A stretch of 64,000 bases of DNA from a virus (lineage: Duplodnaviria; Caudoviricetes). Positions 1 to 29,887 of this stretch are shown one piece after another. The notes under the pieces are model-generated. The model made no database searches, was not told the origin of the DNA, and saw only the letters and a list, made by a program, of their open reading frames with translations. How positions within the stretch are numbered: position 1 is the first letter of the stretch; each line of letters starts with the position of its first letter. The stretch lies in IMG/VR virus record IMGVR_UViG_3300010885_080481; one strand, written 5' to 3'. Both the position numbers and the translations under genes were made by a program.

Positions 1-103
1 TAGTTGTGTCTAACGTTCTGATCTTACGTTTAACAACAGGTCCACTTTTGAAGAGACGAGTTAAACGTTGGAATAAACTTTTATTATTTTCTTCTTTAGA
101 CAC
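1..103 (-). CDS. 5' part of a gene running off the window, probably the portal protein
   Basis: GTG at 103 opens MSKEENNKSLFQRLTRLFKSGPVVKRKIRTLDTT... to the window edge. It lies two genes downstream of TerL; the portal call rests on position and recalled N-terminal similarity. Confidence 0.45.
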   Translation of the reverse strand, partial: MSKEENNKSLFQRLTRLFKSGPVVKRKIRTLDTT

Positions 104-113
104 GATATTACGA

Positions 114-141
114 CCCTACGTATCAATATATCTACGTAGGG
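114..141. promoter_or_regulatory. 9-bp inverted repeat upstream of the putative portal start
   Basis: ccctacgta-N10-tacgtaggg. Confidence 0.55.
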
Positions 142-160
142 CTACAATGGGCAAAAAAAC

Positions 161-463
161 TTAACCTTTTACTGGTTTCAGCGTAACTTTTTGAGCAATT
201 TTTTGTTTCTTTAAATCAGTTACATAGCTCATTGGATTTTGCATCATCAGTTCTAAAACATCTTTTATATTTTTAAGATGAGGAGTTAAAGCATTGACTG
301 CCGCAGGAGGAACCTCATTCTCAAATTCGCTAATTTCTTCATATAAGTCAGCGACAGAAGAGAACAACGCTTTTGCTTCAGCTGAATTCATATTTTCAAC
401 AATGCTTGTTCGTTGAATTGTTATTTCATCTTGCAACGTTTTTGAGTTTAACTTTTTAGACAT
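161..463 (-). CDS. hypothetical protein (100 aa)
   Basis: Clean ORF co-oriented with TerL, TAAATA motif upstream, no recognisable family. Confidence 0.6.
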   Translation of the reverse strand: MSKKLNSKTLQDEITIQRTSIVENMNSAEAKALFSSVADLYEEISEFENEVPPAAVNALTPHLKNIKDVLELMMQNPMSYVTDLKKQKIAQKVTLKPVKG

Positions 464-495
464 TTTGAACCTGGCTTATACGCTATATTTATTAC

Positions 496-2145
496 TTAAT
501 CTCGATATAACCAAGATAAATCTGTCATCGATGGATCAGAGTTAGCGTTGACATGTTTCACTTGCGAAGGTTCTCTTAGCTTGTAAACATTTTGTGGATT
601 AATTCCGTTGGCAGCTCGAAGTGTGGGGCTTATGTAAGGTTGCGCTGAGTTCGGACCGTTAGGAATGTCATTTAATTCTACTCTAGAGATTCCTGTCGAT
701 TTAAGCATTGCATATGCCATTGCCATCGACGATTCGTTCGTCCCACTGCCATCTTCTACTAACCAGGCTCCGATTGCTAGGCTCATGATTAAATCATCAT
801 GACTATCCTTAGAAGCCATTGGTTTGTTATTGTTCCAGACAAAGGCCTGTAATTGATCGTATAATCTTTGTGAATGACACTTCAGGGTTTTATTTCTAAT
901 TAATTCTTCTAACTTTGTGAGGACTTGTACCCTTGTTTTTTGGTTAGTTGGAAACCCTGGCAGTTCTGATTGGTCTGTCGGGATATAAGAAAAAGGATCT
1001 CCTTTATGGTTATGGTAGTATAACTTTGTATATCCTGAATCTCTTAACTTAACGTTGACAAAGTATCCGAAAGTATTATTTTCAGGACATATAAAAGCGT
1101 TATTGTATTTTTTCCCCCATTCAGACAACAAATCAGCAAATTTTTCAGGAGGTATTTTGCCCATATATTCGGCTACAACTTCGCAACTAGATTGATCAAT
1201 CACGTGAAAAGCTGAATAATCGGAAGCGTCGCCACGGGCTACGTCGGCGGATATAACATAATTTTTATCCAACGAAGGATGATCCCATATCCAAACGTTT
1301 CTATCAAACCCAGATTTTTCGACTGGTGGGAAGATGCGTGATCTAAATTCTTCTAGATCTTCTGATTGCAGGAACGTATCGCCTGAAGTAATAAAGTCGC
1401 AAAGATACTCTTGGCTTACTTTTCTTTTAGGTAGATTTCTAGTCTCTTTTATGAACCAAGCTTCATCGTGCTCAGGATGAACAGTCCATGGTAAACGAAT
1501 CGGATTAAACTCATTAGTTCCAGCTTCTGCCTCCACCCAAAGTCTGTAATACAAACCTCCCACACCATTTGGGGAAGATATAAGGATTGCATTACCGCCT
1601 GTCGTCAAGGTAGGATAAAGGCCGGTCCAAATCGTGTCGAAATCTCTAATAAACGCACACTCGTCTACTATCAACAGAGACAAAGCTTCTGAACGACCAG
1701 CATCCTCAGATGTAGGAACTGCTTTTATTTGAGAACCATTACTAAAAGAAATTTGTTGTTTTGACGGTTCAAATTTTGGCATTAAAAGCCATTTTGGCAA
1801 AGATTGCAACATGACAGCTACCTTCTTTATGAAGTTTTGAGCAGTAGCAAGTTTCGTTGCAATTACCAGAATGTTTTTATCTTTATAAAAGATAGCTAAC
1901 CATGTGGCATAGGCAGCAGATACAGTTGATAGTCCTAACTGTCTTGATTTTAAAACTATGTTGAATCGATTCTTTTGAAAATTCTCTAAGCAATCTTCTT
2001 GAAACTGATACAATTCAAAAGGTATCGTTCCTTTTAAAGGATGCTGAATTTTTGCATAGTTTTTAATGAAATACGCAGGATCTTTCCCGCAGCGTATGAT
2101 CTCACTAATCTGTTGTTGTTTCGTTAAATTTTTTTCAGCCATCAA
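496..2145 (-). CDS. terL: terminase large subunit (T4 gp17-like)
   Basis: KSRQLGLST Walker A, LLIVDECAFI Walker B, SSPNG coupling motif, ISADVARG and HDDLIMSLA nuclease motifs. Probable start is the ATG at 2142 overlapping the upstream TGA. Confidence 0.95.
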   Translation of the reverse strand: MMAEKNLTKQQQISEIIRCGKDPAYFIKNYAKIQHPLKGTIPFELYQFQEDCLENFQKNRFNIVLKSRQLGLSTVSAAYATWLAIFYKDKNILVIATKLATAQNFIKKVAVMLQSLPKWLLMPKFEPSKQQISFSNGSQIKAVPTSEDAGRSEALSLLIVDECAFIRDFDTIWTGLYPTLTTGGNAILISSPNGVGGLYYRLWVEAEAGTNEFNPIRLPWTVHPEHDEAWFIKETRNLPKRKVSQEYLCDFITSGDTFLQSEDLEEFRSRIFPPVEKSGFDRNVWIWDHPSLDKNYVISADVARGDASDYSAFHVIDQSSCEVVAEYMGKIPPEKFADLLSEWGKKYNNAFICPENNTFGYFVNVKLRDSGYTKLYYHNHKGDPFSYIPTDQSELPGFPTNQKTRVQVLTKLEELIRNKTLKCHSQRLYDQLQAFVWNNNKPMASKDSHDDLIMSLAIGAWLVEDGSGTNESSMAMAYAMLKSTGISRVELNDIPNGPNSAQPYISPTLRAANGINPQNVYKLREPSQVKHVNANSDPSMTDLSWLYRD

Positions 2146-7707: not shown

Positions 7708-8115
7708 TTAAATTACGCCTAGTTGCTTTAACTCTATTTCCGTAAGCATCAAGAAAGTCATTCCATGATGATGGCACCACAGTTTTGCTGCCTCCGACTT
7801 CTTCTTAACATTAACAGAATCTAATTTCCTTTTTTGTTTTATTTCCACGACAAACTTAGTACCGTTTTTAAGTTCTACGTAAAAATCAGGGTAGTATTTT
7901 CTGATTTTTCCCGTCGACTTATTTGAAACGTATTCTATGATTACTTTTTCATAAGACCAAGAAGATACGTCAGCATGGACATCCAAAAATATCATATATT
8001 TTTGTTCCCACCCACTTCTAAACTTGCACTCACCTGCAATAGGGGATATGTGAATGCCTCTTTGATAACGTGGTTTTTTCTTTCTTCTTTTTTTCTTTGT
8101 CTTTTTACCAATCAT
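7708..8115 (-). CDS. head completion nuclease (T4 gp4 / TnsA-N-like PD-(D/E)xK)
   Basis: FRSGWE, WSYE, YYPDFYVE, VVEIK motifs. Confidence 0.8.
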   Translation of the reverse strand: MIGKKTKKKRRKKKPRYQRGIHISPIAGECKFRSGWEQKYMIFLDVHADVSSWSYEKVIIEYVSNKSTGKIRKYYPDFYVELKNGTKFVVEIKQKRKLDSVNVKKKSEAAKLWCHHHGMTFLMLTEIELKQLGVI

Positions 8116-10594: not shown

Positions 10595-10620
10595 TAAAAT
10601 TCTTCATTATCTTAATGATA

Positions 10621-11829: not shown

Positions 11830-11864
11830 TTTGTCAGTTTACCAATCTTATAATTTGTAAGATG

Positions 11865-12587: not shown

Positions 12588-12666
12588 GTTTTCACCTAAA
12601 TTCTACTTGTAACTATTGGACAAGTAAATTTGTATGACCTAAATTATATTTTTGCGATATTTTTCT

Positions 12667-14526: not shown

Positions 14527-14535
14527 AGCTTCTTT

Positions 14536-17500
14536 TCAAAATTTGGAATTATTGTAAGTCGACAGCTTAGCTATATTTCCTATATCATTTAATATTTCTT
14601 TAGAAATATTCTTAAGATCGCCAACGGAAGTAGAAGCTGCCTTTTTTATCTCACTTGGTTGCTTGATATTTTCAGTTAATTGTTTACCTATTGATAACTT
14701 AATAGATTTTGCATGAGTTTCTAAAACGGCAAAATAAGAGTATAACGTTACATCACTTTCAGTTTTATCGTTATCGTAGTATACATTTCCGACTTGTTTT
14801 ATCTTTCCTAAAGACACCATCGCTTCAAGCAGTTTTTTACCTATAGAAGTGCTTTGAGTTGCTGATACATCAACTTGAAACTCTGGATCGAATATTATAT
14901 TAAAAACTCTGTCAAACTTTTTAGGAGCCACCAATTTTTTGAGAAATTCTATATTGGACGGAAATATCTTTTCAGAAAAAGTCGTTGCATTTCCAAAGTT
15001 TTTTCTAGATCTGTTTTGGGATATTTCTAAAGAAAGTAAAGCCTCTGCTTCTGCTGTGTCTAGATTAAACGTTGTTTCATTAAGTACCAAGCCTGTAGTG
15101 ATCTTTAGATAATTTTCTAATAAAAAGCTAATAATATGGTTCTCTATTATTTGTGATTTTTCATAGTCATTTAAAAAGCTATATTCTTCATCATCAAGAT
15201 TTGGAACTATCGTTGATACTTCTCCACCATCTTTTGAATTAGACTTGTTAAAAAAAGAATAATTTCTAGTGTAAAGCTGCTTTATATCAGAAACGTTGTC
15301 TGGAATTTTGTCCACTATTCTAACTGGGTATCTTGATGCTTCAAACAAAAATGTTTTTGGTAAATAAATGACGTCGCTATTCAGCAAGTCCATTTTATAA
15401 ATGGATACTTTTATGATGTCATCGTGCTTGTTTGTGCTTTTTTCAAGTTGAACTTGCGTTAAAAGATTTTTTATCAAGTTTTGCGCAAGACCAACGGTTA
15501 TGATCTTTTTGTTGTATCCTTTGACTTTTGCAAATTCTTGGTTGTTAAAAAATCTCTTTAAAACTTTTACCATTTTATCGGAATGAGAAAGAGTTTCTAG
15601 ATGGTTGTTGAAATACACCTTGGAAGTATTATCGCTAGAAGTAAACTTATCAACTGAAGCGTTCATGTCTTCCAGATTAGATAGCAACAAACTCAATTGA
15701 TTTTTAGAAAGTAAAAACTTTAACTTTTCTTTACCTCCCATGTACTGTGCTAAATAAGTCAGCTCCGCTCCAGCTAATGAGTTAATTGTTGCAAGAGAAT
15801 CATTTATTCCTTTTTTTAGAGTTTTTATCGTATTCAAAGCCGTAATAATAGATGTATTCAAATATGAAATTTCATTTTTAATTTTGCTTCTTATTGGCCC
15901 TGCTGACATTAGAGCATAAACTGAATTATTAAATCCATTATTAGTCACACCAGGAGACAACTGTACGTAAGAACTCCAAAGCCAAGCTTTTTTTACATTA
16001 TCTCCTGACGAATTTACGTTAAATTTATCTTCTTTCGGTGCAGGTAATTTGCCAATAGTGTTATTGAATTGATCCATCGCCCAGGCTCTTACTTCGCTAC
16101 CTTCCATTAACTTTATGCACTTAAATAAAGTTTCAAACATCATTAACTTAATAGTTTGAAAAGACACCCCATTAAAGCTAGTTAAACCAGCTAAGTTACC
16201 AGAAGCATAAGTAAATAAAACTTTTTCAACTTCTTTAAGCACCTCAGCAATTAGCTTAAACACCGGGTTAGCTCTTAAAGCTTCACCAAATCTTAAGGCA
16301 TTTTCATATCGACACGGCAACCATGAAAATTCTCCACTCTGTAATCTATCTTCAATTTGCGAAATTGCTTGACCAAAAGTTGCCTCACCAGATTTTTCAC
16401 TTTTAGTGTTAGCTGCTGCTGCGTTTTGCTTCTCAATGTAAGATTTTATTGCGTTTATATCATCTTTTATCTCTTGAGGAAAGTCTCCTAAACTTACGCT
16501 TTTATCTTTAAGAAATCTATGTATTAAAACGTCTAAAAGGTAAAAAGAACCGTTAGGAGATGAATTGTAAAAATGTATCATCAAATAAACCAAACTTTTT
16601 AGTTTGACGTAACCAGGTTTATTGATGTGCTTTAAAAATGATATCACTCCTAAATTTGGATTGTTATAATCAAATTCTGCTTTATTTAAATTTGAGTTTA
16701 AGATATCAAAAATCTTATTAAAGAAAATAGTGGGATCTGTCGACACGTAGTTAGGCGAAAATTCTTTATTAAAAACTTGAGAATCTTTTGTGCTCAGCAT
16801 TCCTAAGTCATAAGCAATTGTAGAAAAATGCAAGTCTAAAGAAGACAACTTATTTCCCAACAAATTTGCCCTGTTTCTAAGATCATAGTTTCCATTTGAA
16901 TCTACAAATTCTACCAATCTTTCTTCGCTGTAAATGTAACTGCCGGCGTCGACTATATTAGGGAACGTATTTTTTTCTGACTTTATGATCTGGTTTTCTG
17001 ACTCTTCTAATGTGAGAACAGATTTATCATTTGTCAACAAAAAAGATAATCCTTTTAAAGAATTTTGAGAATTTGTATTGACGGGAGAATAAATCCTGTC
17101 ATTATTTTTTACGTTACCTATAACCTTTTCTAGGAAATCATAGTTAGCTGATTTATCATTAGAACTTGCTCGAAGTCCTGGCAAAGACGTATTAAAAAAG
17201 TTTAACGCATTAGCTAACTTGGCAGACGATGGGTCGTAGCACGATGATATTCTAATTTCTTTACAAATGGAATTTAAAATAACTGCAATAATTTTTGTTT
17301 CATCTAAATCTATCTTGCTTAAAGAAGCATTCAAAGCAATAAAAATATTATTAAATCTATTCGTTTCTGTTTCTATTTCATCTAGTTTTTCAGCTAGCTG
17401 CGGAGGGATTTGACTATCTGTAATAAAATCTGATATACTTTCTGAGTCGACCACTACATCTAGACTTAATCCAGAAGTAACTTCTAAATTTGTTGCTGCA

Positions 17501-18528
17501 ATTTCAGAGTCTGTTTCAAATTTTGAAAAAATAGATAACTTTTCATCACCAGCTCTAGTGGGTATAGACTTGGCATCAGAACCTGTATACGGTTCTTTTG
17601 AAACGTATAAGTTTAACAAGTTTTGTGTTTCTTTTACTAACATTAACCAAAGTTTAGTAGAAGAAAATTTAGACAAATCACTTTCTTCTATCTTTGTTAG
17701 TAACGCTAACACTTTCACTAAATTCGTTTTTTCAGTTGTTAAAGACTTACAATAATCCTTTAATAAATCTTTGTCTGTTTTTGAATCTTCTGGTATTTCT
17801 TTGCTTATAAATTCAAGCGCAGAAAAATCATAAACTTCACTAAACAAGTTTAACCTTTTTCTATCAAGCTCTATTCTTTTCAAAATTTGATAAACTGATT
17901 TTGTTGCATCGGTCAATGAAGCTACACTTTTCTTTATTGCTTCATTCCTTTTTTTTACATTTTCGTTATTTTTTAAACTGTTTATAGCCGTTGCATCATT
18001 TTCTATCTGGCGCATTGTTTGAATGTACACATCAAATAATTTGCCATGTTCGGTTTGTTCGGAATTTTGTTGAAGATACAATGGATGAAAATCAGTCAAC
18101 GCAATAATTTCAGGACGACTATCTGAAATATTGGTTAATTTTTCAAATTCTGATATAGGTTTTTGAGGGGTTGAATCATTGCTGTATGTAACGATATCAC
18201 TTTCTTGAGTTTTATTTCCAAACCCCGTGACCGAGGAAGCGTAATGTCCTAGATCTTTTAGATTACTGCTAAGTCCACCTTCTAAGTTAGTTTTGTTACC
18301 TGAAGGCTTTAATAAAGATGTGACACTTTCTTGGCCGGTGGGCCTCCCTGCGTTTGAACCAGCATCACTAGCAGGTTCTATTTTGGTAATCAAACTGCTG
18401 ATTTTAGATAATGCTTCAGCATTGGCATCTGACATACCAGAAATAGAAACTTTTGAAACAGGTTGAGTTTGAAGTCTACCTGTTTTTAAAAAAGAATTAT
18501 TAGCAGATTTTGGAAATTTTATCGTCAT
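14536..18528 (-). CDS. large hypothetical protein, probably virion-associated (1330 aa)
   Basis: Long intact ORF tightly packed in the structural block; no family recognised. Confidence 0.55.
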   Translation of the reverse strand: MTIKFPKSANNSFLKTGRLQTQPVSKVSISGMSDANAEALSKISSLITKIEPASDAGSNAGRPTGQESVTSLLKPSGNKTNLEGGLSSNLKDLGHYASSVTGFGNKTQESDIVTYSNDSTPQKPISEFEKLTNISDSRPEIIALTDFHPLYLQQNSEQTEHGKLFDVYIQTMRQIENDATAINSLKNNENVKKRNEAIKKSVASLTDATKSVYQILKRIELDRKRLNLFSEVYDFSALEFISKEIPEDSKTDKDLLKDYCKSLTTEKTNLVKVLALLTKIEESDLSKFSSTKLWLMLVKETQNLLNLYVSKEPYTGSDAKSIPTRAGDEKLSIFSKFETDSEIAATNLEVTSGLSLDVVVDSESISDFITDSQIPPQLAEKLDEIETETNRFNNIFIALNASLSKIDLDETKIIAVILNSICKEIRISSCYDPSSAKLANALNFFNTSLPGLRASSNDKSANYDFLEKVIGNVKNNDRIYSPVNTNSQNSLKGLSFLLTNDKSVLTLEESENQIIKSEKNTFPNIVDAGSYIYSEERLVEFVDSNGNYDLRNRANLLGNKLSSLDLHFSTIAYDLGMLSTKDSQVFNKEFSPNYVSTDPTIFFNKIFDILNSNLNKAEFDYNNPNLGVISFLKHINKPGYVKLKSLVYLMIHFYNSSPNGSFYLLDVLIHRFLKDKSVSLGDFPQEIKDDINAIKSYIEKQNAAAANTKSEKSGEATFGQAISQIEDRLQSGEFSWLPCRYENALRFGEALRANPVFKLIAEVLKEVEKVLFTYASGNLAGLTSFNGVSFQTIKLMMFETLFKCIKLMEGSEVRAWAMDQFNNTIGKLPAPKEDKFNVNSSGDNVKKAWLWSSYVQLSPGVTNNGFNNSVYALMSAGPIRSKIKNEISYLNTSIITALNTIKTLKKGINDSLATINSLAGAELTYLAQYMGGKEKLKFLLSKNQLSLLLSNLEDMNASVDKFTSSDNTSKVYFNNHLETLSHSDKMVKVLKRFFNNQEFAKVKGYNKKIITVGLAQNLIKNLLTQVQLEKSTNKHDDIIKVSIYKMDLLNSDVIYLPKTFLFEASRYPVRIVDKIPDNVSDIKQLYTRNYSFFNKSNSKDGGEVSTIVPNLDDEEYSFLNDYEKSQIIENHIISFLLENYLKITTGLVLNETTFNLDTAEAEALLSLEISQNRSRKNFGNATTFSEKIFPSNIEFLKKLVAPKKFDRVFNIIFDPEFQVDVSATQSTSIGKKLLEAMVSLGKIKQVGNVYYDNDKTESDVTLYSYFAVLETHAKSIKLSIGKQLTENIKQPSEIKKAASTSVGDLKNISKEILNDIGNIAKLSTYNNSKF

Positions 18529-18530
18529 AC

Positions 18531-21092
18531 TTACTCTACTAAATCTATCAATAAGTTATTAGAATACACCACATTTCCAACTGAAAAATCGGCGTGTACA
18601 GGAACCAATACGTAACTGATTTCTCCAATATCATGCTTGGTAATTTCATGAATAAAACGTATGTCTGTCGTCAAACAATGAGATTTTCCTATTAGCGTTC
18701 TAACATTTTCAATTTCTTTAAAAATTAAAATGTGATCTATAGAATTTTCATCTCCATTTATCTTACAAGTAATAGAAACCTTATTGCTTTCTATAAAATT
18801 TGCAAAAGCTTTTTCGATAGTACCAAAAGGAGTTTTGTAAGAAACTTCAAACGAATAATTGAACCCTATTTTACCAGCTATAGATTCATCTTGGCCAGTT
18901 TCATTTATAAAATTTCTAGAAAAGACTGTTCCTCTTTTCAATTTTTCAGGGTACAACTTAACAGTTGGATCATAGCTGTACTTCTTTTTTGTTTCGATGT
19001 CTTCTACTTCTGTTTTGGATGAACGAGCAATTGATTCAGGATGTCTGATTAAGGGTGTGAGAACGTATTGGTACTCATTTTCAGCCAACAGATTTTTTGC
19101 TAAAAACTTCGAAGATTGTATAGAATCCGTAAATGGTTGATTGTTGCCAATGATTCCTAAATTTTCTACATCTCCTGTAGACTTGTTGTATCTAGTAATT
19201 TGAAAACAAATTATTTTGTCGAATATTGATTGTTTTTCGTTAATACTGCTAGAAGAAAATTCAGGATAATTTCCTATAAAGATTGCTATTTGATCTCTAA
19301 ATCTAGAATTTTGTTCTTGTTCTAATTCTATAGAGGGAGTAAACTTTAAATCCAAAGTTCTTCCATTTACTTCAGAGCCTGCGGGGCGGGCGGCGGCAAT
19401 TTCAGTCGCCGTGGCGCTGGCAGCAAACCTAAGATCGTCTTTTAAAAATTCATTTAATCTTATATTGAGAGATCCACCTTCATAAGGAAGATATTCTAAA
19501 AATGCGGAATGAGAAGAAAGTTCTTCATGTCCAGACCCATTTACGATCATTGTTGTAAATTCATAAATATGATTTGGAATTAATCTATTTTTTATGAAAA
19601 TAGAGCTAGCCATTGAATTAGGACTAAAGTTTAAATTTTCTATTTGAAAAAATTCTTTTTGTTTTGTCGTGACATCTCTGTACAAAATTCTTGCGCATGT
19701 GATGTTAGGATCATGATTAAAAACTTCAATCTTTACGTTACCTTGTAAGGATAACTTGGGAATTAAAATAACTTTTTTCTTATGAGTTTTTTTACTGACT
19801 ACAATGTCAGTGAATTCTGATGATAAATTTTCAGTATAATTTGAAACAGGTATGAATCTGTAGATTGTCAAATCATCTTTGGTAACATAAAACTCAACTT
19901 TAATTGGACTTTTCGACTGAGATACATTAACAGTATCAACCTCTGAAAAAGAATCTAAAGTTCCATCATTTTTTATTACTTTTCTATAGATTTTTACTTT
20001 AGAAGCTTTTTTATCTATTTGTTTAATAGAAAATATCACCTTGCCAGTTTTTTGCGTGTAAGCAACGTGAGGAGGATGTTTTACTAGATAAAAATTGTTT
20101 AGATGTTTTTGTAAATCAAATATTTTTTCTACAGTCTCTAAAGGTAATAAAGTTTTTTTGCCAGAAGATAAAGAAACATTTTTGAATAACTCAAACTTTA
20201 CTATTAAAGAAGTGTTTTTAGTTATTTGGGATTGTTTTATATTGACCTTAGTAGAGACAGTTACAATGTCTTCTATTATTCCTTCTAAAACAGTCGAATA
20301 AGTCTTTGGTCTTGAACTATTTTGTCCTTGAAACAAATAATGATTCAATACATTACCAAGAGAGTCTCCTTGATTTTCTGGATGATTGTTTTTTCTAACT
20401 ATGCCTTGAGAAACTTCATAAGTAGATAAGTTTCTGGACTGTAACTTTGTAATTTCTGAGGGAGCTATTCCTTCTTCAAATAAAAGTTTATAGTAAGCAG
20501 ATCGTGTGTTAAATCCATCATTATTTAATCCTTGTTTGAGGTTCAATTCAGGAATATCAGATATGGAATGATGACTTACCTGAGGAACTAATTCTTCTTT
20601 GGATTTGTCTTTTTTTACACTAGATTCTATCTTTCTTAAAGATAGTTTGCTTTTTTTTCCTAGATCTGTTATGCTGCCGCCGGCTTTTATTACGCTGATC
20701 AGTTGGTTGTTTATCTTAGATGAGATATCACTAGATTTTTTAGTGACAAAATTACTGGCATCATCTTGATTAATGTTATTAATTTGGCTCCTGAAAGTAA
20801 TCAAATTTCTTATTATTTCATTACCAGTCAAATCTCTTAAAGCCTCTGAAGAAAAAATGACAGGTCTATCTTTACCACTTTCTTTTATAGTGATGTTCAG
20901 AGTGATTGCGTTTTCGGCTATAGCTTTTAATTGAGATATCTTGTACCTAAAAACAAATTGCATGTCTCCTTCTGCAATTTGCGATCGTAAACCATTGCTT
21001 TCTGAAGATGTCTCAAACATCCTCTCTAAAGTAGCAAAATTGTCTTCTACTTCTATAATTCCATTTTTTAGTTTAGGAAGATCAAAAAACAT
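18531..21092 (-). CDS. putative virion protein with beta-rich/FN3-like repeats (853 aa)
   Basis: VKIYRK, FQITRY...FTD...YQYVLTP patterns; structural block. Confidence 0.5.
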   Translation of the reverse strand: MFFDLPKLKNGIIEVEDNFATLERMFETSSESNGLRSQIAEGDMQFVFRYKISQLKAIAENAITLNITIKESGKDRPVIFSSEALRDLTGNEIIRNLITFRSQINNINQDDASNFVTKKSSDISSKINNQLISVIKAGGSITDLGKKSKLSLRKIESSVKKDKSKEELVPQVSHHSISDIPELNLKQGLNNDGFNTRSAYYKLLFEEGIAPSEITKLQSRNLSTYEVSQGIVRKNNHPENQGDSLGNVLNHYLFQGQNSSRPKTYSTVLEGIIEDIVTVSTKVNIKQSQITKNTSLIVKFELFKNVSLSSGKKTLLPLETVEKIFDLQKHLNNFYLVKHPPHVAYTQKTGKVIFSIKQIDKKASKVKIYRKVIKNDGTLDSFSEVDTVNVSQSKSPIKVEFYVTKDDLTIYRFIPVSNYTENLSSEFTDIVVSKKTHKKKVILIPKLSLQGNVKIEVFNHDPNITCARILYRDVTTKQKEFFQIENLNFSPNSMASSIFIKNRLIPNHIYEFTTMIVNGSGHEELSSHSAFLEYLPYEGGSLNIRLNEFLKDDLRFAASATATEIAAARPAGSEVNGRTLDLKFTPSIELEQEQNSRFRDQIAIFIGNYPEFSSSSINEKQSIFDKIICFQITRYNKSTGDVENLGIIGNNQPFTDSIQSSKFLAKNLLAENEYQYVLTPLIRHPESIARSSKTEVEDIETKKKYSYDPTVKLYPEKLKRGTVFSRNFINETGQDESIAGKIGFNYSFEVSYKTPFGTIEKAFANFIESNKVSITCKINGDENSIDHILIFKEIENVRTLIGKSHCLTTDIRFIHEITKHDIGEISYVLVPVHADFSVGNVVYSNNLLIDLVE

Positions 21093-21098
21093 AATTTT

Positions 21099-22091
21099 CT
21101 ACTCAAAGATTAAAGTAAAAATTTTAACAAATGTGTTGTTTTCATATTGGTCTAAAAATACTTTTCCAACAAAAAAAACTTGCTTAATCTTATTTTCGTG
21201 TTTGAATGTACCAAATTCTAACACGTCTAGCTTTTGTAAAGAATCGCCAGTAATTTCAAAAACTTGAGAAAAAAGTTTATTTGCTATAGAGGTAGAATCA
21301 AAAAATACTGTCTCTTTAAATCCTTTTTCTTCTAAAGAGTTTAACTCGTTATTCAATTCTTCAAATCCGTAACTACCTTTAAAGTCTGATAGCTCCGGAT
21401 AATTTCCTATAGAATTATCTCTGATAACTTCAGGATCTTTTCTATTAACAAATTTGTCGTAAATTCGATTAATAGGAGGCAAATATTGAAAGTTTTTTAC
21501 CTTGCTGAAAGTTTTATCATTAAAGATACTAGGTAAGATTACTAAATCTTTAACTTTTTCATTTACCTTTAAAGGATTGTTTTCAGTTACTTTAAAGCTT
21601 ATTGTTTGTTTACTTAATTTTGTGCTTTCTTCTTCTAGAAATAAAACGTCTTTTGTCCCTATCACGTATAACTTTTTAAAGTTATCCGCTGAAGATGCTA
21701 ACAAAGACTCTGCCGTTGAAGAAAAAGCAGAACCAGTCAAAAAATTATAAGTGCTTATTTGCGAGCCGGAAAATAGATCACTTGTAACAGTAGCAGGAAC
21801 TGGTATGGCTCCTCCTAAAACTTGAATACTTTGAGAATTTTTGAAAGGTTTAAGCTTCCCAGAATCATCAGCTTCAAAAGTAATCTGATCTTGCGGCAGA
21901 TGTCCTTGTTCAAAGTAAAGTCTGTTTGTTACGTCAGCTGATCCGCTAATCGCATCTAAAGAGTAAAAGGTAGCTCCATCGGTAAAGCTTACATACTCTA
22001 TCTTTAGTTTACCATCGGCAATCTGTCGTCGGCCTGCGAGCGTGACGATGGTATCCATTATTCTTTCTTTGGAATCCAGCAATCCGCTCAT
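21099..22091 (-). CDS. virion structural protein, paralog of the 11865-12587 N-terminus
   Basis: MSGLLDSKERIMDTIVTLAGRRQIA...EYVSFTDG parallels MGFLDHSTNNIILDAVLTDTGRQFLS...KFALGDD. Confidence 0.55.
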   Translation of the reverse strand: MSGLLDSKERIMDTIVTLAGRRQIADGKLKIEYVSFTDGATFYSLDAISGSADVTNRLYFEQGHLPQDQITFEADDSGKLKPFKNSQSIQVLGGAIPVPATVTSDLFSGSQISTYNFLTGSAFSSTAESLLASSADNFKKLYVIGTKDVLFLEEESTKLSKQTISFKVTENNPLKVNEKVKDLVILPSIFNDKTFSKVKNFQYLPPINRIYDKFVNRKDPEVIRDNSIGNYPELSDFKGSYGFEELNNELNSLEEKGFKETVFFDSTSIANKLFSQVFEITGDSLQKLDVLEFGTFKHENKIKQVFFVGKVFLDQYENNTFVKIFTLIFE

Positions 22092-22129: not shown

Positions 22130-23521
22130 TTATAGTATCTGGGATGCCAAAGTAGCCAATTCGCTTCTTTCACCTTTCAACATGGTAACGTGGCCGGCAA
22201 TGTCATACTCTTTGAACTTTTCGATAGCGTACGTTAAACCGCATGTGTATGCGTCCACGTGAACGTTATCAATCTGTTCAATATCACCAGTTAGAACTAT
22301 CTTAGTTCCGTCTCCTACACGCGTGATGATTGTCTTTAGCTCGTGCATCGTTAGATTTTGAGCTTCGTCAATTACTATAAAAGAATTTGGAATTGATCTT
22401 CCACGTATAAACGTAATGGCTTCAATCTCAATCAATCCTTTTTCTTGCATCAAAGAAAGATAAGCGTTACTATCCGTTTTATTCCAATTACCTTCAGTTT
22501 TTGTGTTACCTCTGACTCTTGAAGCATTGCCTCTTTTATTGCCCATTAAGAAATTGAGGTTGTCTTTGATGGGAGAAATCCAAGGCTCCATTTTTTCTTG
22601 TAATGTACCTGGTAAGAATCCGATATCTTTTCCGACTGGTTGAACTGGCTTTGTAACGATTAGCTTAGAGTAATGAGCAACATCTGGATTGCCTATCCCT
22701 TTTAATTGTTCGAGCGCAGCAGAGAGGGCGAGTAAAGTTTTACCAGAGCCGCTAAGACCTACCAAAGTTAAAAGCTTGACCTGCGGATCAAACAGTAAGT
22801 CTAAAGAAAATGCCTGTTCTTTATTCCTGGGTTTTAATCCAAAAACACTTTCAAATTTGTTGATAGGAATAAGCTTTTTAATTCCATCGATTATTTTAAG
22901 CTTGGTTATGGCCGACTTGACCGTCTTTTCTTCCTCAACATGCTTGATTATGATGATCTGATTTGGATATTGGGCCTGGGGGAAATTTACGACTAATTCT
23001 TCATTTATGTAAAAAGAGTCTATGTCTTCCTCAGGAAGCTCTACCACTTCTACACCTTTATAGAATGTTTTTGGATCGTTAGTAACTCTTAGTTTTAAAT
23101 AGTCTTCAGATGCTATACCTAGTGCATCGCATTTTATTCTTACGTTGATATCTTTAGACACCAAGATATAATCTCTTGGTAAACCCAACATTAAGCTGAT
23201 TATTAGGTTATCTGCCTTAGTTGGATCAAGCTCTGTCGGAAGTTTTTCTTTTGCAATGGATGAATCCACTGACACAACGCGAAGAATACCGCCGTCAGAT
23301 AAAGTTACTCCATTTATCAAGCTGTTATCAGAAGATCTCATGCCATCCAACGTTCTACTGACGCTGCGGGCATTGTGACCAACTTCATCCATTCTACTTT
23401 TATGATGATCTAGTTCTTCCAGAACAACCATTGGTATAATAACATCATTATCCTGGAATGAAAAGATTGAGTTAGGATCGTTTAATAATACGTTTGTGTC
23501 CAGGACGTAAGTTTTTTTCAT
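22130..23521 (-). CDS. phoH: PIN-PhoH (PhoH2/YlaK-type) protein
   Basis: YVLDTNVLL PIN start, GLSGSGKT Walker A, FIRGRS, VIDEAQN Walker B. Start moved to the ATG at 23521. Confidence 0.92.
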   Translation of the reverse strand: MKKTYVLDTNVLLNDPNSIFSFQDNDVIIPMVVLEELDHHKSRMDEVGHNARSVSRTLDGMRSSDNSLINGVTLSDGGILRVVSVDSSIAKEKLPTELDPTKADNLIISLMLGLPRDYILVSKDINVRIKCDALGIASEDYLKLRVTNDPKTFYKGVEVVELPEEDIDSFYINEELVVNFPQAQYPNQIIIIKHVEEEKTVKSAITKLKIIDGIKKLIPINKFESVFGLKPRNKEQAFSLDLLFDPQVKLLTLVGLSGSGKTLLALSAALEQLKGIGNPDVAHYSKLIVTKPVQPVGKDIGFLPGTLQEKMEPWISPIKDNLNFLMGNKRGNASRVRGNTKTEGNWNKTDSNAYLSLMQEKGLIEIEAITFIRGRSIPNSFIVIDEAQNLTMHELKTIITRVGDGTKIVLTGDIEQIDNVHVDAYTCGLTYAIEKFKEYDIAGHVTMLKGERSELATLASQIL

Positions 23522-23543
23522 ATTGATATTCAACAATCTTGTT

Positions 23544-23571
23544 TGAACAATGTAACTTTTTTGCCTAAAGT
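23544..23571 (+). promoter_or_regulatory. TGAACA-N16-TAAAGT promoter of the sigma4-only gene
   Basis: In the divergent phoH/sigma4 intergenic region. Confidence 0.45.
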
Positions 23572-23583
23572 ATAAACAAATTA

Positions 23584-23841
23584 ATGAAGAAAAGTTTACC
23601 AATTTTAAACGAAGCAAACAAATGTTTTGAAGTGCATGCTGCTTATAAGGTCTGTTGCCAAAAAAAATCTTGCAAAAATTACATAGAAAATGCATCAACA
23701 CAAAATTGTGTGATTATTGCAGCTCAAAAAGGACCTCACACACTTCAAAATATCGGTAAGATATACGGATTAACTAGAATGAGAATATGCCAAATTGAAA
23801 AGAATATCATTCAAAAATTGAAGAATTCTATAGACATCTAA
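23584..23841 (+). CDS. stand-alone sigma-70 region 4 HTH protein with Cys-rich N-terminus
   Basis: HTLQNIGKIYGLTRMRICQIEKNIIQKLK matches the sigma4 pattern TLEEVG..F.VTRERIRQIE.KAL.KLR; N-terminal C..H...CC...C...C. Confidence 0.8.
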   Translation: MKKSLPILNEANKCFEVHAAYKVCCQKKSCKNYIENASTQNCVIIAAQKGPHTLQNIGKIYGLTRMRICQIEKNIIQKLKNSIDI

Positions 23842-26380: not shown

Positions 26381-26995
26381 TCAAGTTCCGATAATTTTAT
26401 CGACGATTCCCAACTTAACTGCTTCTTCAGGCGTAACATAATAATCATGACCAGACTTCATAATCTTTTCAATTTGTTCTTTGGTCATGTCGGATTCTTT
26501 TTGTAACGAAGTCACCATCAAATCTTGTAATCTCTTAAACTCTGATGTCTCGTTCATAGATTCAAATACGTTACCATAGAATCCTCCGGAAATCGGATGA
26601 ATCATCAATCTGGCTGAAGAACCTATCAACCTTTTTCCTTTCACACCAGATGAAAGTAGAAGCACGCCTGCAGACATGACTTTACCTAATGCTATTGTGT
26701 GAACTGGGCATGGTAAGAATCTAATAGTGTCATATAAAGAAAACATTTCATCTACTGATCCACCGTAAGTGGATACGACCAAATGTATTGGTTTATGATT
26801 TTGATTTGCTAGATACAAGAGTTGATAAATTACTGCTGAAATTGATTGCTCACTAACCCCGCCGTAAAGAACAACTATTCTGGAATCTTCGCCGTGTTTT
26901 GCATGGGGAAGCAGGGCCGCGAGGTCTGCTTCATCATGATCAGATTTTTTATTTTTAGAACTAAAAGGAATTTTTACGTCAGTGGATCTTCCCAT
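26381..26995 (-). CDS. clpP: ClpP-like protease subunit
   Basis: STYGGSV, KVMSAG (Ser), MIHP (His), HDYY (Asp), EEAVKLGIVD. SD AAGGAG lies 6 nt before the ATG at 26995. Confidence 0.9.
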   Translation of the reverse strand: MGRSTDVKIPFSSKNKKSDHDEADLAALLPHAKHGEDSRIVVLYGGVSEQSISAVIYQLLYLANQNHKPIHLVVSTYGGSVDEMFSLYDTIRFLPCPVHTIALGKVMSAGVLLLSSGVKGKRLIGSSARLMIHPISGGFYGNVFESMNETSEFKRLQDLMVTSLQKESDMTKEQIEKIMKSGHDYYVTPEEAVKLGIVDKIIGT

Positions 26996-27221
26996 CGTCG
27001 CTCCTTGATACGAATATTTCATCGCCGGCAATTTCTTTGATAACATCAGTTAGATCTTTTACATGGTTAATGTTTTCTAGTTCAAGAGAAAGTAAGTAAA
27101 TAAGAAACATTTGTTGTCTTTGCTTGAGACCAACATTCAATATTTCTTTAACAATTCGCCTACACTCTTCATTTTCTTTTGATATCTTTTCTGAAGATAA
27201 CTGACCATATACTTGTTGCAT
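26979..27221 (-). CDS. hypothetical protein (80 aa)
   Basis: Fills the gap between neighbours; 17 nt overlap with the clpP start. Confidence 0.55.
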   Translation of the reverse strand: MQQVYGQLSSEKISKENEECRRIVKEILNVGLKQRQQMFLIYLLSLELENINHVKDLTDVIKEIAGDEIFVSRSDDGKIH

Positions 27222-27226
27222 ATCAA

Positions 27227-27751
27227 TTATTCTCCTAATGATTCTTTTCTAATATGAGAATCGACTTTAAACAATGATTCACCCAGTATTCTCACATATT
27301 TTACTATCTTATTATCACCTTCTACATCATTGGATAGCACAACAATATCTCCCCATCTTTTTTTTTCGATGACATATTGAACGTGCTCCCATGTCGGTAA
27401 CTCACAATTATTTCTTTCTAAAACTGGGATTAAATTTGGATTAATAGAGTTCTTTATGTCATCAATTGAAATGATAGATGACATATTTTCTTTACCTTGC
27501 ATTATTTCAGACGTGCAAATGTCTATGACTTTGTGAACAAGCCCACAATTATTACATTGCGAATACTTTTGCTTAACTTGACCATTTTCTACTTCAGAAA
27601 AAACTAAAAATTGATGAGATACAGCATTCGGCAAATTTTTATACTGAGACAACACACATCTACATTTTATTAGATGTTTTTGTCCGTAAGATTCTGTTAA
27701 AGAATCCCCAGATAAATCTTTTGTCTCTTTCTGGGACTTCTTTTTCTTCAT
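27227..27751 (-). CDS. hypothetical Cys-rich protein (174 aa)
   Basis: HLIKCRC, CNNCG and ICTS putative metal ligands. Confidence 0.6.
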   Translation of the reverse strand: MKKKKSQKETKDLSGDSLTESYGQKHLIKCRCVLSQYKNLPNAVSHQFLVFSEVENGQVKQKYSQCNNCGLVHKVIDICTSEIMQGKENMSSIISIDDIKNSINPNLIPVLERNNCELPTWEHVQYVIEKKRWGDIVVLSNDVEGDNKIVKYVRILGESLFKVDSHIRKESLGE

Positions 27752-27757
27752 GATCTT

Positions 27758-27997
27758 CTATTTTTTTTTCTTAGATGTTACAGTCTCTTCTTTAAAACAT
27801 TCTGATAAAAAGTTCTTATGCCCTTTATTGTAACCTTCACTGATCGAGGCATCTATTACATTCAAAAGATTAGGAAGAACAGACTCTTCAACTTTTAGCT
27901 GACCTGAATTAATTGCGGATACTAAATTTTTCTTAGTAATTTCTTTTGTTATCTCAAACAACGACCAAGCAGATTTGCTTAACTCATCTTTTTTCAT
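27758..27997 (-). CDS. hypothetical protein (79 aa)
   Basis: Clean ORF with TTTACC-17-TATATT upstream. Confidence 0.6.
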   Translation of the reverse strand: MKKDELSKSAWSLFEITKEITKKNLVSAINSGQLKVEESVLPNLLNVIDASISEGYNKGHKNFLSECFKEETVTSKKKK

Positions 27998-28033: not shown

Positions 28034-29212
28034 TCATTCTGCAATAATAGCACCTAAATTTTGAATGGTGTTAAAAATTTTTTCTGAGAATTTTTGTGAT
28101 ACTTTTTTTGTAGCAAAAATTTCTCCGTCTTCGCAAATTCCGAAATCTAATAAAGACTTGATAGCTCTTAGACAATAATCAACAGATTGAGAATCTGCGA
28201 TAAACCTACTAGAATCCGGAATCCTTATAATACATTTGTTGTCTGCTAGTCTTTTCATTCTAGCTTCATAAACTTCTTCAGCTCCAGGAGATGAATCTAA
28301 TTTTTTCATTAGATTTTTTAAGTGAATTCTTACTTGCTGCTTTGTTTTTTTGTTTTTTATTGATATAGAATTGTTATTTATGCTTATTTCATCAACAGTT
28401 GATGAATCTGATAAACTAACAGAAGATATCAATTGACCTAAATTACTGGATATAGGATTAACTCCTACTATTACGCTAATGTCTACCATGGAGTTGATTC
28501 CATCTAAGTCGAAAGGCATAGAAATCGGATAAACAAACATTGTAGATCTTTTTCTATTAACTTCCATTGTTGATAAAACATCATCATGAAAGCCGCGAGA
28601 AAATATAATGACTTGGTGTTTGCTGTTGACTGCTTCTTCAAAAATTTTATTTAATTCAGAAACAGAATCAACAAATCCGTCGATCGTTATGACTTTTGGA
28701 TGTAGTATCCTAACAGAAGAAGTAAAAGTCTTGCATTTGAATTCATAAAATGATGAAACTTCCAGCGAAGTGGCGTTGTTGAAACTTTTTTCAACAACAA
28801 TTTTTCCATGAAATCCAGAAATTTTAATAGCTTCTAGCAGTAAACTTTTTAGTTTACTGTCATCTACATATTTAGAAACAACATTTTCAATGTCTGAAAA
28901 TTTAGGATGAAAAGTTTTCTCATCTATAAAAACTTTTCTAGTTTCAGAAAAATCTATAACATTTTTTAATGTTACAAAAAATCCGCCTGCAGACAATCTT
29001 TCAGCCAAAAAACAATTTTCTAAAATCAGTTTATAGATTAAGCTTTCTAATTCGTTTTCAAACTTAAAGTTTAAGAAATTTTGAAAAGCTGATTTTACGG
29101 CTATGTTTTCTTTAGCACTATTCAAAAACAAATTTGATTTATACAAACTACGAATTGTATAAATAACATTTTTTGTTGCTAAATCAATATCGCTTGTTAA
29201 GAAAACAGACAT
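28034..29212 (-). CDS. degenerate, truncated GroEL-like chaperonin
   Basis: LLEAIKISGFHGKIVVE, apical-domain pattern (HPKVITID...QVIIFSR...TMEVN...DISVIVG), EARMKRLA and VDYCLRAIKSLLDFG align by eye with GroEL; GDGTTT absent. Confidence 0.75.
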   Translation of the reverse strand: MSVFLTSDIDLATKNVIYTIRSLYKSNLFLNSAKENIAVKSAFQNFLNFKFENELESLIYKLILENCFLAERLSAGGFFVTLKNVIDFSETRKVFIDEKTFHPKFSDIENVVSKYVDDSKLKSLLLEAIKISGFHGKIVVEKSFNNATSLEVSSFYEFKCKTFTSSVRILHPKVITIDGFVDSVSELNKIFEEAVNSKHQVIIFSRGFHDDVLSTMEVNRKRSTMFVYPISMPFDLDGINSMVDISVIVGVNPISSNLGQLISSVSLSDSSTVDEISINNNSISIKNKKTKQQVRIHLKNLMKKLDSSPGAEEVYEARMKRLADNKCIIRIPDSSRFIADSQSVDYCLRAIKSLLDFGICEDGEIFATKKVSQKFSEKIFNTIQNLGAIIAE

Positions 29213-29218
29213 CTATAT

Positions 29219-29246
29219 ATCATAGATCAATTCTTATAAATGTTCA
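29219..29246 (-). promoter_or_regulatory. TGAACA-N16-TATGAT promoter, 6 nt before the GroEL-like ATG
   Basis: Read directly; the TGA is the upstream gene's stop. Confidence 0.6.
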
Positions 29247-29858
29247 AAATACTTTAAATTGATTCATGATATAAGCATGAAATATCTTACCAAGTACGCC
29301 GAATAAAGCTGTACCTAAAGTCAAGGCGAGCCATTTAATAGCTCCAGCCTGTCTTTCGTACCACTTTTGAAGTTCTTTTAAAACTTCAGCGTGCTCTCTT
29401 AGTATTTTTTCAACATCAGCTTCTTCTATTTCTTCTTTTTCAGCAAGCTTATCTTTACTTTCTTTCCAACTTTTTATATATTTTATTTCTTCTTCTAAGT
29501 TTTCTACTCTTTCAACTTCTGCAGTTTGATTTTCTACGTTTTTTATTCTTGCGTATAATCCGCTATCAGGATCATAAAGTACATCTCTTATATCATCGAC
29601 TTTTTCTACTAATTTTTCTTGAGATTGTTCTATTTTTTCTATCTTATACATCAAAGTAGAAAAGCCACCATTCATCGCCGGAGCTGATAGGATCCTATTT
29701 TGCATTTCAGCAATTTGCTTACGATTATGTTCTAAAGCTGCTAACGCTGCTTTAGATTCCGGTGCAGAATCAATGATTTCTTTTTTGTCCTTGCGAGGAC
29801 GACTTCTTTTTTCTGAAACAACAGAAACTTTTTTTTCAGTCGTTTTTTTAGTAGGCAT
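29244..29858 (-). CDS. coiled-coil protein with C-terminal transmembrane helix
   Basis: Basic N-terminus, long heptad-rich region, AIKWLALTLGTALFGVLGKIF hydrophobic helix. Holin-like role possible but unsupported. Confidence 0.6.
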   Translation of the reverse strand: MPTKKTTEKKVSVVSEKRSRPRKDKKEIIDSAPESKAALAALEHNRKQIAEMQNRILSAPAMNGGFSTLMYKIEKIEQSQEKLVEKVDDIRDVLYDPDSGLYARIKNVENQTAEVERVENLEEEIKYIKSWKESKDKLAEKEEIEEADVEKILREHAEVLKELQKWYERQAGAIKWLALTLGTALFGVLGKIFHAYIMNQFKVF

Positions 29859-29887
29859 ATACATCCTCATCAAGGCTAGTATTTTTA

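What the first reader, a model, noticed from the sequence alone, without database searches (positions are those of the whole stretch)
28034..29212. GroEL pseudo-enzyme: apical domain kept, ATP site and C-terminal equatorial part lost
Seen: 392 aa against about 545 for GroEL. The position of AGDGTTTA reads SAGGFFVT, and the chain ends shortly after the intermediate-domain hinge. No GroES-like gene is in the window. The ORF is intact and has its own promoter. Known: characterised phage chaperonins (phiEL, OBP) keep ATPase activity. Inference: an ATP-independent holdase, assembly scaffold, or a subunit that poisons or retunes host GroEL rings.
Basis: partly seen in the sequence, partly recalled or inferred. 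Interest (0 to 1): 0.65.

Follow-up and report, generated by a model that had tools for sequence, protein, structure and literature searches.

The report
Short ATP-site-less GroEL paralog in phage
An uncultured T4-like giant phage encodes a well-conserved, shrunken copy of the protein-folding machine GroEL that keeps the client-binding head but has lost its ATP motor; close relatives also carry a normal full-length GroEL, so this is an unannotated second, motor-less kind of viral chaperonin whose job is untested.

Summary
ORF 28034-29212 (-) is an intact 392-aa protein. Sequence searches (PDB GroEL E 1e-13 alone, 1e-31 as a family profile) and an AlphaFold2 model (pLDDT 95; Z 25.8 to GroEL) show it is GroEL-derived. 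The intermediate and apical domains are kept. The equatorial domain is cut from about 240 to about 135 residues. All canonical nucleotide-site motifs are absent (GDGTTT becomes AGGFFV; Asp398 becomes Tyr; GGG414-416 becomes DGE; segment 479-495 is missing).

It is not decaying. The family has at least 469 clusters at 50% identity (E<1e-30), nearly all 370-430 aa. dN/dS is 0.07-0.13. Gene order is fixed across 44 viral contigs, always next to a novel zinc-binding protein.

New here: three related phage records, including both that are at least 84% complete, also carry a full-length GroEL with an intact ATP site at a distant locus. None carries GroES. The helix-I groove residues (Thr261, Asn265, Arg268 equivalents) are among the most conserved positions.

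Best reading: a nucleotide-independent binding module working beside the phage's own chaperonin. The mechanism is inferred.

The family is labelled only "hypothetical protein", is absent from cultured phages and cellular genomes searched, and was not found in the literature. This scan's first readers noted look-alike short GroELs in at least eight other genomes.

The parts
28034..29212 (-). Short GroEL-like ORF, 392 aa plus stop
   Evidence: ORF listing. PHROG 5725 'chaperonin groEL' E 4e-11. PDB GroEL E 3.6e-13 alone and 5e-31 as a family profile. AF2 pLDDT 95. VIA Z 25.8 to GroEL.
28913..29212 (-). Residues 1-100: reduced N-terminal half of the equatorial domain (strand, helix, beta-hairpin, three helices)
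   Evidence: DSSP of the model. Model 1..392 aligns to GroEL 4..525. No sequence similarity to GroEL is detectable for this part alone.
28970..28996 (-). Residues 73-81, LSAGGFFVT, at the place of the GroEL phosphate loop AGDGTTTA
   Evidence: Translation. Helix-helix junction in the model. Family columns: D87 position is Gly in 87/104, T89 position is Phe in 90/104.
28751..28912 (-). Residues 101-154: first intermediate-domain segment
   Evidence: Profile alignments to GroEL 143-190. A165, G170, G173, E178 equivalents are conserved.
28241..28750 (-). Residues 155-324: apical domain
   Evidence: Aligns to crystal structures of isolated GroEL/Cpn60 apical domains at rmsd 1.8-2.2 A over 170-178 residues, model 155..324 = GroEL 192..374.
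28541..28666 (-). Residues 183-224: helices H and I, the peptide/GroES-loop groove of GroEL
   Evidence: T261->T215 and N265->N219 invariant, R268->R222 89%, L237->L/F, V264->V 74%. L234->His/Asn and V263->Lys/Arg/Ser.
28142..28240 (-). Residues 325-357: second intermediate-domain segment; Tyr346 at the place of catalytic Asp398, invariant Asp345 at Glu397
   Evidence: hhalign and hmmalign columns.
28037..28141 (-). Residues 358-392: reduced C-terminal half of the equatorial domain (invariant Gly358 = G410, one helix, terminal strand); DGE at the place of GGG414-416
   Evidence: The conserved C-terminal ...NLGA.. end appears in all close homologs.
29219..29247 (-). Sigma-70-like consensus match TTGAAC-17-TATGAT ending 6 nt before the ATG
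   Evidence: Consensus match only; the count in the region equals chance.
27227..27751 (-). orf174: zinc-type (His, CxC ... CxxC, His) protein, the constant downstream neighbour
   Evidence: Found downstream in 44 of 44 related loci. Invariant H26 C30 C32 C66 C69 H73. AF2 pLDDT 90. No known fold.
27758..27997 (-). orf79: small conserved ORF between the short GroEL and orf174
   Evidence: Found by tblastn in 21 of 44 loci. dN/dS 0.07-0.16. No Pfam or PHROG family.
26979..27221 (-). orf80: small conserved ORF
   Evidence: Found in 37 of 44 loci. dN/dS 0.05-0.07 in the two pairs that differ at the protein level.
26381..27046 (-). ClpP-family peptidase in the same gene string
   Evidence: Pfam CLP_protease E 2e-38. 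Present near the short GroEL in 34 of 44 loci.
29244..29873 (-). orf209: upstream neighbour, 209 aa
   Evidence: Found in 32 of 44 loci. Only a weak PHROG 'hemolysin' match, E 0.006.

Best explanation
The gene encodes a GroEL-derived protein that no longer binds or hydrolyses ATP in the GroEL manner. It keeps a near-native apical domain and both intermediate segments on a minimal equatorial stump.

Inferred mechanism: it works as a nucleotide-independent binding module. The groove between apical helices H and I clamps an extended segment of a defined client or partner. The backbone-clamping residues (Thr261, Asn265, Arg268 equivalents) and the inner hydrophobics of that groove are conserved.

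Because the outer hydrophobic rim of the groove has become polar or charged, binding is probably specific rather than the promiscuous capture of any unfolded protein.

It is made from the early/middle replication-proteostasis gene string. It most likely acts beside the phage's own full-length, ATP-driven GroEL, which close relatives encode, and with the always-adjacent zinc protein orf174.

Shown: homology, fold, loss of ATP-site motifs, conservation, selection, synteny, and co-occurrence with a full-length GroEL in relatives. Inferred: ATP independence, use of the H/I groove, oligomeric state, and the identity of client or partner.
For: Homology and fold:
- PHROG 5725, E 4e-11.
- PDB GroEL E 3.6e-13 for the single protein and 4.9e-31 for the family profile.
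- hhalign probability 98.8 to E. coli GroEL 148-425.
- AF2 pLDDT 95, pTM 0.84.
- Foldseek E about 1e-23.
- VIA Z 25.8 over 1..392; apical domain rmsd 1.8-2.2 A.

ATP site absent family-wide:
- D87 position is Gly in 87/104 members, T89 is Phe in 90/104, D398 is Tyr or variable, GGG is not conserved.
- The LGP (30-33) and KDG (51-53) positions could not be aligned at all.
- The chain is too short to hold a 479-495 segment.
- There is no Pfam Cpn60_TCP1 hit.

Functional constraint:
- 1753 profile hits, 469 at E<1e-30; 141 of the top 150 are 358-434 aa and the other nine are shorter (188-332 aa).
- Close homologs are all 392 aa.
- dN/dS is 0.07-0.13 at dS 0.3-0.46.

Groove: T215, N219 and R222 are invariant or nearly so.

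Hinges: the G375 position is Asn/Ser/Arg. The G192 position is Phe in the window protein. The model fits GroES-bound/open GroEL conformers (rmsd 5.6-6.3 A) better than apo ones (10-11 A). This suggests a fixed, non-cycling arrangement.

Context:
- Constant gene string over 44 loci, with orf174 in 44/44. In some loci its start overlaps or directly abuts the short GroEL stop.
- A full-length GroEL with GDGTT, GPxG, DAL and GGG intact is present in three relatives' records. These include the complete 298-kb one and the 84%-complete one closest to the window.
- No GroES in those records.
Against: - No biochemical data exist.
- ATP independence is inferred from missing motifs; an unorthodox nucleotide site cannot be excluded.
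- The invariant Asp345 lies one residue from the Asp398 position. A one-residue alignment shift would restore a catalytic-type Asp.
- The equatorial remnants have no sequence similarity to GroEL. Their homology rests on a predicted structure only.
- Oligomeric state is unknown.
- Co-occurrence with a full-length GroEL is shown in 3 of 14 records searched. The other 11 are 15-61% complete.
- Co-occurrence is not shown for the window's own genome, which is not held.
- The short protein evolves faster than its neighbours (38-44% against 65-90% identity to the same relatives).
Confidence: 0.5

Rival explanations
1. It is a non-catalytic subunit or regulator of the phage's own full-length GroEL. 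Either it co-assembles into mixed rings through the retained terminal strands and stem-loop hairpin, as chloroplast Cpn60 alpha/beta subunits do. Or it caps the ring in place of the missing GroES.
For: A full-length GroEL with an intact ATP site is present in three related records that also hold the short one, including both records that are at least 84% complete. No GroES homolog is in those records. The model keeps an N-terminal strand, a beta-hairpin and a C-terminal strand. From established GroEL structures, these are the elements that make the intra-ring equatorial sheet.
Against: The two genes lie about 87 to 141 kb apart on the three records that hold both, and are not co-transcribed. 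The equatorial remnants are poorly conserved in sequence within the family. Profile scores of the short family to phage full-length GroELs (94-109 bits) are no higher than to E. coli GroEL (95.5 bits), so there is no sign of recent duplication or co-evolution. Co-occurrence is untested in most records.
Confidence: 0.2
2. It targets the host chaperonin. It inserts into, or binds to, host GroEL rings and poisons or retunes them for phage needs.
For: It shares the GroEL fold. T4-type phages are known to re-tool host GroEL with gp31 (established knowledge; cited in PMC5649160).
Against: Relatives bring their own full-length GroEL, which lessens dependence on the host's. Equatorial contacts have diverged beyond recognition from bacterial GroEL. 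No host is known.
Confidence: 0.08
3. It is a substrate-delivery cap for the neighbouring ClpP-family peptidase. A seven-fold GroEL-type ring would match seven-fold ClpP and feed it bound polypeptides without an AAA+ partner.
For: ClpP lies in the same gene string, three genes downstream in the window, and lies downstream in 34 of 44 loci. Both parent families form heptameric rings (established knowledge).
Against: Ten loci have no ClpP match near the short GroEL; five are the divergent L037, L039, L040, L042 and L044, where orf174 and PhoH stay. There is no fusion and no direct adjacency. No longer fused forms were found. ClpP alone degrades only peptides unless its pore is opened (established knowledge).
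Confidence: 0.07
4. It is a decaying remnant of a phage GroEL with no function of its own.
For: Loss of all catalytic motifs. It diverges faster than its neighbours.
Against: dN/dS is 0.07-0.13. Length is conserved across hundreds of clusters. There are invariant residues, and the AF2 model is confident.
Confidence: 0.02

Closest known systems
Bacterial group I chaperonin GroEL/Cpn60 (E. coli GroEL; T. thermophilus Cpn60, PDB 4V4O)
   Same: Same three-domain topology (Z 25.8). Apical domain within 2 A rmsd. Shared intermediate-domain motifs. Thr261/Asn265/Arg268 equivalents conserved.
   Different: 392 against 548 aa. The equatorial domain is roughly halved. GDGTTT, Asp398, GGG and the 479-495 segment are absent. 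No Gly-Met tail. The outer groove hydrophobics Leu234 and Val263 are replaced by polar or charged residues. Below Pfam detection.
Full-length phage chaperonins (Pseudomonas phage EL gp146, PDB 6TMT-6TMV; Bacillus phage AR9 GroEL), and the full-length GroEL of this phage lineage (L046-L048)
   Same: Phage-encoded. GroEL fold (Z 21.5-22.5 to gp146; BFVD AR9 E 2e-22). No GroES gene alongside.
   Different: Those proteins are 540-562 aa. Those of this lineage keep the GPxG, GDGTT, DAL and GGG motifs, and EL gp146 was crystallised with ATP-BeFx (entries 6TMT and 6TMU). The short family has none of these motifs and coexists with a full-length one as a second paralog.
Engineered GroEL minichaperones (isolated apical domain 191-376; PDB 1KID, 1FYA, 3VZ6)
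   Same: ATP-independent by construction. Same apical fold (rmsd 2.1-2.2 A).
   Different: The natural protein also keeps both intermediate segments and a small equatorial stump. Its groove rim is less hydrophobic, and it is a conserved natural family.
Phage GroEL apical domain fused to a zinc-type domain
   Same: A reduced, ATP-less GroEL derivative of an uncultured freshwater giant phage, associated with a zinc-type domain.
   Different: There the zinc domain is fused and only the apical domain is kept. Here the zinc protein (orf174) is a separate neighbouring gene, and no fused form of orf174 was found. Kinship of the two zinc domains was not tested.

Membership tests
Group I chaperonin GroEL/Cpn60 (Pfam PF00118 Cpn60_TCP1) | Sequence match to the family model above its curated threshold | tested here: not met
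   No PF00118 hit even at E<=1. PF00118 also does not detect the short genes in relatives' records, although it finds their full-length GroELs. Homology is nevertheless significant with PHROG 5725, PDB sequences and hhalign.
Group I chaperonin GroEL/Cpn60 | Three-domain fold: equatorial, intermediate, apical | tested here: met
   AF2 model pLDDT 95. Foldseek E about 1e-23. VIA Z 25.8 with model 1..392 on GroEL 4..525. The equatorial part is about half the normal size.
Group I chaperonin GroEL/Cpn60 | Nucleotide site: LGP (30-33), D52, GDGTTT (86-91), D398, GGG (414-416), 479-495 segment | tested here: not met
   D87->Gly, T89->Phe, D398->Tyr/variable, and GGG is not conserved. Positions 30-33 and 51-53 are not alignable. 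The chain is too short for 479-495.
Group I chaperonin GroEL/Cpn60 | Hydrophobic helix H/I groove for substrate and the GroES mobile loop | tested here: inconclusive
   L237, V264, T261, N265 and R268 equivalents are conserved. L234->His/Asn and V263->Lys/Arg. Y199 and F204 are not alignable.
Group I chaperonin GroEL/Cpn60 | Heptameric rings, double-ring contacts, ATP-driven cycling with GroES | not testable with these tools
   No multimer prediction or biochemistry is available. No GroES gene is in the window or in five relatives' records.
Full-length phage chaperonins (EL gp146 type) | About 540-560 aa with intact ATPase motifs | tested here: not met
   392 aa and no motifs. The lineage's true member of this type is a separate gene in relatives.
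Minichaperone-like (apical domain only) | Consists of the apical domain alone | tested here: not met
   Intermediate segments and equatorial remnants are present and confidently modelled.

The most novel reading that the evidence does not exclude
The short protein forms a nucleotide-free seven-fold ring that docks onto another seven-fold machine of the phage. It would either sit as a built-in lid/adaptor on the phage's GroES-less full-length GroEL, or act as a substrate-feeding cap on the neighbouring ClpP. That would be a chaperonin fold re-used as a passive co-factor, an arrangement not described for any chaperonin.
Probability: 0.15. Interest if true: 0.85.

Novelty: new variant of a known kind. 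Interest (0 to 1): 0.6.

Why it matters
All characterised group I chaperonins, including the few studied phage ones, are ATP-driven machines. This is a large, strongly conserved natural family in which the ATP engine and half of the equatorial domain were discarded while the client-binding head and its groove were kept. At least some of these phages also encode a normal GroEL.

If the protein is active, it shows what a chaperonin subunit can do without ATP in vivo. It would be a natural counterpart of the laboratory minichaperone. It also points to a two-component viral chaperonin system without GroES.

The family is annotated only as 'hypothetical protein' and falls below Pfam detection. Recognising it would improve annotation of many aquatic giant-phage genomes.

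Tried and rejected
- **Split gene.** The downstream small ORFs (orf79, orf80, orf174) were considered as carriers of the missing equatorial piece or a GroES-like partner. None has a Pfam or PHROG chaperonin hit. The orf174 model has no known fold (Foldseek best E 0.04; VIA best Z 4.7).
- **Fusions.** No longer proteins contain orf174 or the short GroEL. This is weak evidence, because the search is word-based.
- **Cultured phages.** tblastn of three divergent family members against 50,697 GenBank phage records gave no match. A neighbouring 1330-aa protein also gave none.
- **Cellular genomes.** A pattern scan of 185,579 species genomes found no relative.
- **Sequence homology of the termini to GroEL.** None was detectable.
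- **Decay hypothesis.** Rejected by dN/dS.
- **Own genome.** So the close homologs' DNA and the window genome's full-length GroEL could not be checked.
- **Literature.** Full-text searches and two targeted reads (PMC5649160, PMC7824862), plus PMC12619734, gave no description of a short ATP-less phage GroEL.
- **Origin of the short family.** Phage duplication against separate capture was not resolved. No tree was built, for lack of bacterial outgroups in hand.

Full report
**1. The observation**

The minus-strand ORF 28034..29212 is intact and encodes 392 aa. The string ...AERLSAGGFFVT... is at residues 70-81.

Pfam finds no Cpn60_TCP1 domain even at E<=1, but other comparisons establish homology:
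- PHROG 5725 'chaperonin groEL' matches residues 118-360 (E 4e-11).
- The protein alone hits solved GroEL chains. T. thermophilus Cpn60 4V4O gives E 3.6e-13, query 108-372 on GroEL 143-422.
- A profile of 104 family members raises this to E 5e-31.
- hhalign against E. coli GroEL (fetched as L045) gives probability 98.8 over GroEL 148-425.

The window is from a tailed phage. It encodes a T4-type large terminase, an SbcD-SbcC fusion, a primase, a PIN-PhoH protein, ClpP and a helicase. It has no relatives among GenBank phage records. Earlier notes of this scan call it an uncultured freshwater T4-like jumbo phage; I did not verify the habitat.

**2. Structure**

An AlphaFold2 model built on the 104-sequence alignment is very confident (mean pLDDT 95, pTM 0.84).
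- Foldseek's top PDB matches are all GroEL/Hsp60 chains (E about 1e-23).
- VIA-align gives Z 25.8 with model 1..392 laid on GroEL 4..525.
- Isolated apical-domain crystal structures superpose at 1.8-2.2 A over 170-178 residues (model 155..324 = GroEL 192..374).
- The model fits GroES-bound/open conformers (rmsd 5.6-6.3 A; TM 0.62-0.66) better than apo ones (rmsd 10-11 A; TM 0.45). I take this only as a weak hint of a fixed open arrangement.

The equatorial domain is reduced on both sides. About 100 residues precede the intermediate domain (133 in GroEL), and 35 follow the invariant Gly358 (= G410), against about 115 structured residues in GroEL.

The retained elements are an N-terminal strand, a long helix, a beta-hairpin, three helices, one C-terminal helix and a terminal strand. 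So this is an internally minimised equatorial domain rather than a plain C-terminal truncation.

These terminal parts show no detectable sequence similarity to GroEL. Their assignment therefore rests on the predicted topology.

**3. The ATP site**

The table uses a profile alignment to E. coli GroEL.

| GroEL position | Window protein | Family (104 members) |
|---|---|---|
| D87 | Gly76 | Gly in 87 |
| G88 | Gly77 | Gly/Ser/Ala |
| T89 | Phe78 | Phe in 90 |
| T90, T91 | Phe79, Val80 | variable |
| D398 (catalytic) | Tyr346 | Tyr in 44, otherwise variable |
| G414-G416 | Asp-Gly-Glu | not conserved |

The LGP (30-33) and KDG (51-53) positions are not alignable. There is no room for the 479-495 segment.

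One caveat: Asp345 is invariant and sits one residue before the D398 column, aligned with E397.

The hinge glycines are also eroded. The G375 position is Asn/Ser/Arg. The G192 position is Gly in 92% of the family but Phe in the window protein. Only G410 is invariant.

By contrast, the full-length phage GroELs found in relatives keep GPxG, GDGTT, DAL and GGG.

**4. The apical groove**

The most conserved columns include the helix-I residues T261 -> Thr215 (100%), N265 -> Asn219 (100%) and R268 -> Arg222 (89%). The inner hydrophobics are also kept: L237 -> Leu/Phe and V264 -> Val (74%).

The rim residues L234 and V263 have become His/Asn and Lys/Arg/Ser.

From established GroEL structures (GroES mobile-loop and peptide complexes), these helix-I residues line the peptide-binding groove. 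I infer that the groove is still used, but for a more specific ligand than generic unfolded protein.

**5. A real, constrained family**

- Close homologs (80-99% identity) are all exactly 392 aa and share the same C-terminus.
- An exhaustive profile search of 1.84 billion representatives found 1753 hits, 469 at E<1e-30. Of the top 150, 141 are 358-434 aa and the other nine are shorter (188-332 aa), probably cut at contig ends.
- Forty-four IMG/VR contigs carry a member, with ORFs mostly 370-440 aa.
- Pairwise dN/dS in unsaturated pairs is 0.07-0.13, similar to neighbouring genes at 0.04-0.16.
- The ESM Atlas lists the nearest clusters as 'hypothetical protein', 100% viral, with no Pfam family.
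- BFVD holds only full-length viral GroELs as structural matches.
- No member was found in cultured phages or in 185,579 species genomes.
- First readers of this scan noted look-alike short GroELs in at least eight other genomes.

**6. Context**

Across the 44 loci the order is orf209, short GroEL, (orf79), orf174, orf80, ClpP, helicase..., PIN-PhoH, with a divergent glycosyltransferase upstream.

orf174 is found in 44 of 44 loci. In some divergent loci its start overlaps or directly abuts the short GroEL's stop. It has invariant His/CxC/CxxC/His residues and a confident model (pLDDT 90). It has no known fold and no fused forms.

ClpP has no match near the gene in 10 of the 44 loci, five of them in the divergent group (L037, L039, L040, L042, L044).

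The short GroEL is less conserved than its neighbours. Its identity to the same relatives is 38-44%, against 65-90% for the neighbours.

**7. A second, full-length GroEL**

Searching the whole records behind the loci with PF00118 found a 540-546-aa Cpn60 at a distant place in three of them:
- G002, 298 kb, with direct terminal repeats, 100% complete;
- G001, 278 kb, 84% complete, and the closest to the window by neighbour identity;
- G004, 60% complete.

The other 11 records searched are 15-61% complete and uninformative.

No GroES was found in five records by PF00166, phrog_3188 or phrog_13932. None was found in the window either.

Profile scores of the short family to phage full-length GroELs (94-109 bits) equal that to E. 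coli GroEL (95.5 bits). The origin of the short form is therefore unresolved.

**8. Interpretation**

Identity is well supported: an ATP-site-less, equatorially minimised GroEL paralog under purifying selection. I put this at about 0.9.

The mechanism is inferred. I favour a nucleotide-independent binding module that uses the H/I groove for a specific client or partner. It would work beside the phage's own ATP-driven GroEL and the adjacent zinc protein (0.5).

The rivals and their weights:
- a mixed-ring subunit or lid of the phage GroEL (0.2);
- a host-GroEL modulator (0.08);
- a ClpP-coupled cap (0.07);
- a decaying gene (0.02, contradicted by selection).

**9. Novelty**

I found no description of such a family in the searchable literature. 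It is best classed as a new variant of a known kind: the GroEL superfamily with a new, reduced, ATP-less architecture.

Noticed in passing
window 27227-27751 (-), and L001-L044 downstream of the short GroEL: orf174 belongs to a conserved phage family with invariant His26, Cys30, Cys32, Cys66, Cys69, His73 (a zinc-type site). Its model is confident but matches no solved fold (best Z 4.7). It accompanies the short GroEL in all 44 loci.
   Followed up: partly
L046 (G002:145744-147267), L047/L050 (G001:37428-38942), L048 (G004:192928-194439): Relatives encode a full-length GroEL (540-546 aa) with intact ATP-site motifs but no Gly-Met tail and no GroES. In L050 a 72-aa ORF (4620-4838) overlaps its stop codon.
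   Followed up: partly
window 26381-27046 (-): A ClpP-family peptidase gene (Pfam E 2e-38) sits in the replication/proteostasis string of a T4-like phage. No Clp ATPase was looked for.
   Followed up: no
window 22130-23701 (-): A PIN domain fused to a PhoH-like ATPase (523 aa), conserved in 43 of 44 related loci.
   Followed up: no
window 2877-6017 (-): A single 1046-aa ORF joins an SbcD/Mre11-like phosphoesterase to an SbcC/Rad50-like part. T4 encodes these as two genes (47 and 46).
   Followed up: no
window 29244-29873 (-): orf209, upstream of the short GroEL, has only a weak PHROG 'hemolysin' match (E 0.006). It is conserved in 32 of 44 loci.
   Followed up: no
window 8105-22091 (-): Six large ORFs (330-1330 aa) have no Pfam or PHROG family and no GenBank phage match. 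They are probably structural or fibre genes of this lineage.
   Followed up: no
window 28751-28753 (codon of residue 154... Phe155 at 28748-28750): The window's sub-clade has Phe (or Ser) where 92% of the family, and GroEL itself, have the hinge glycine G192.
   Followed up: partly
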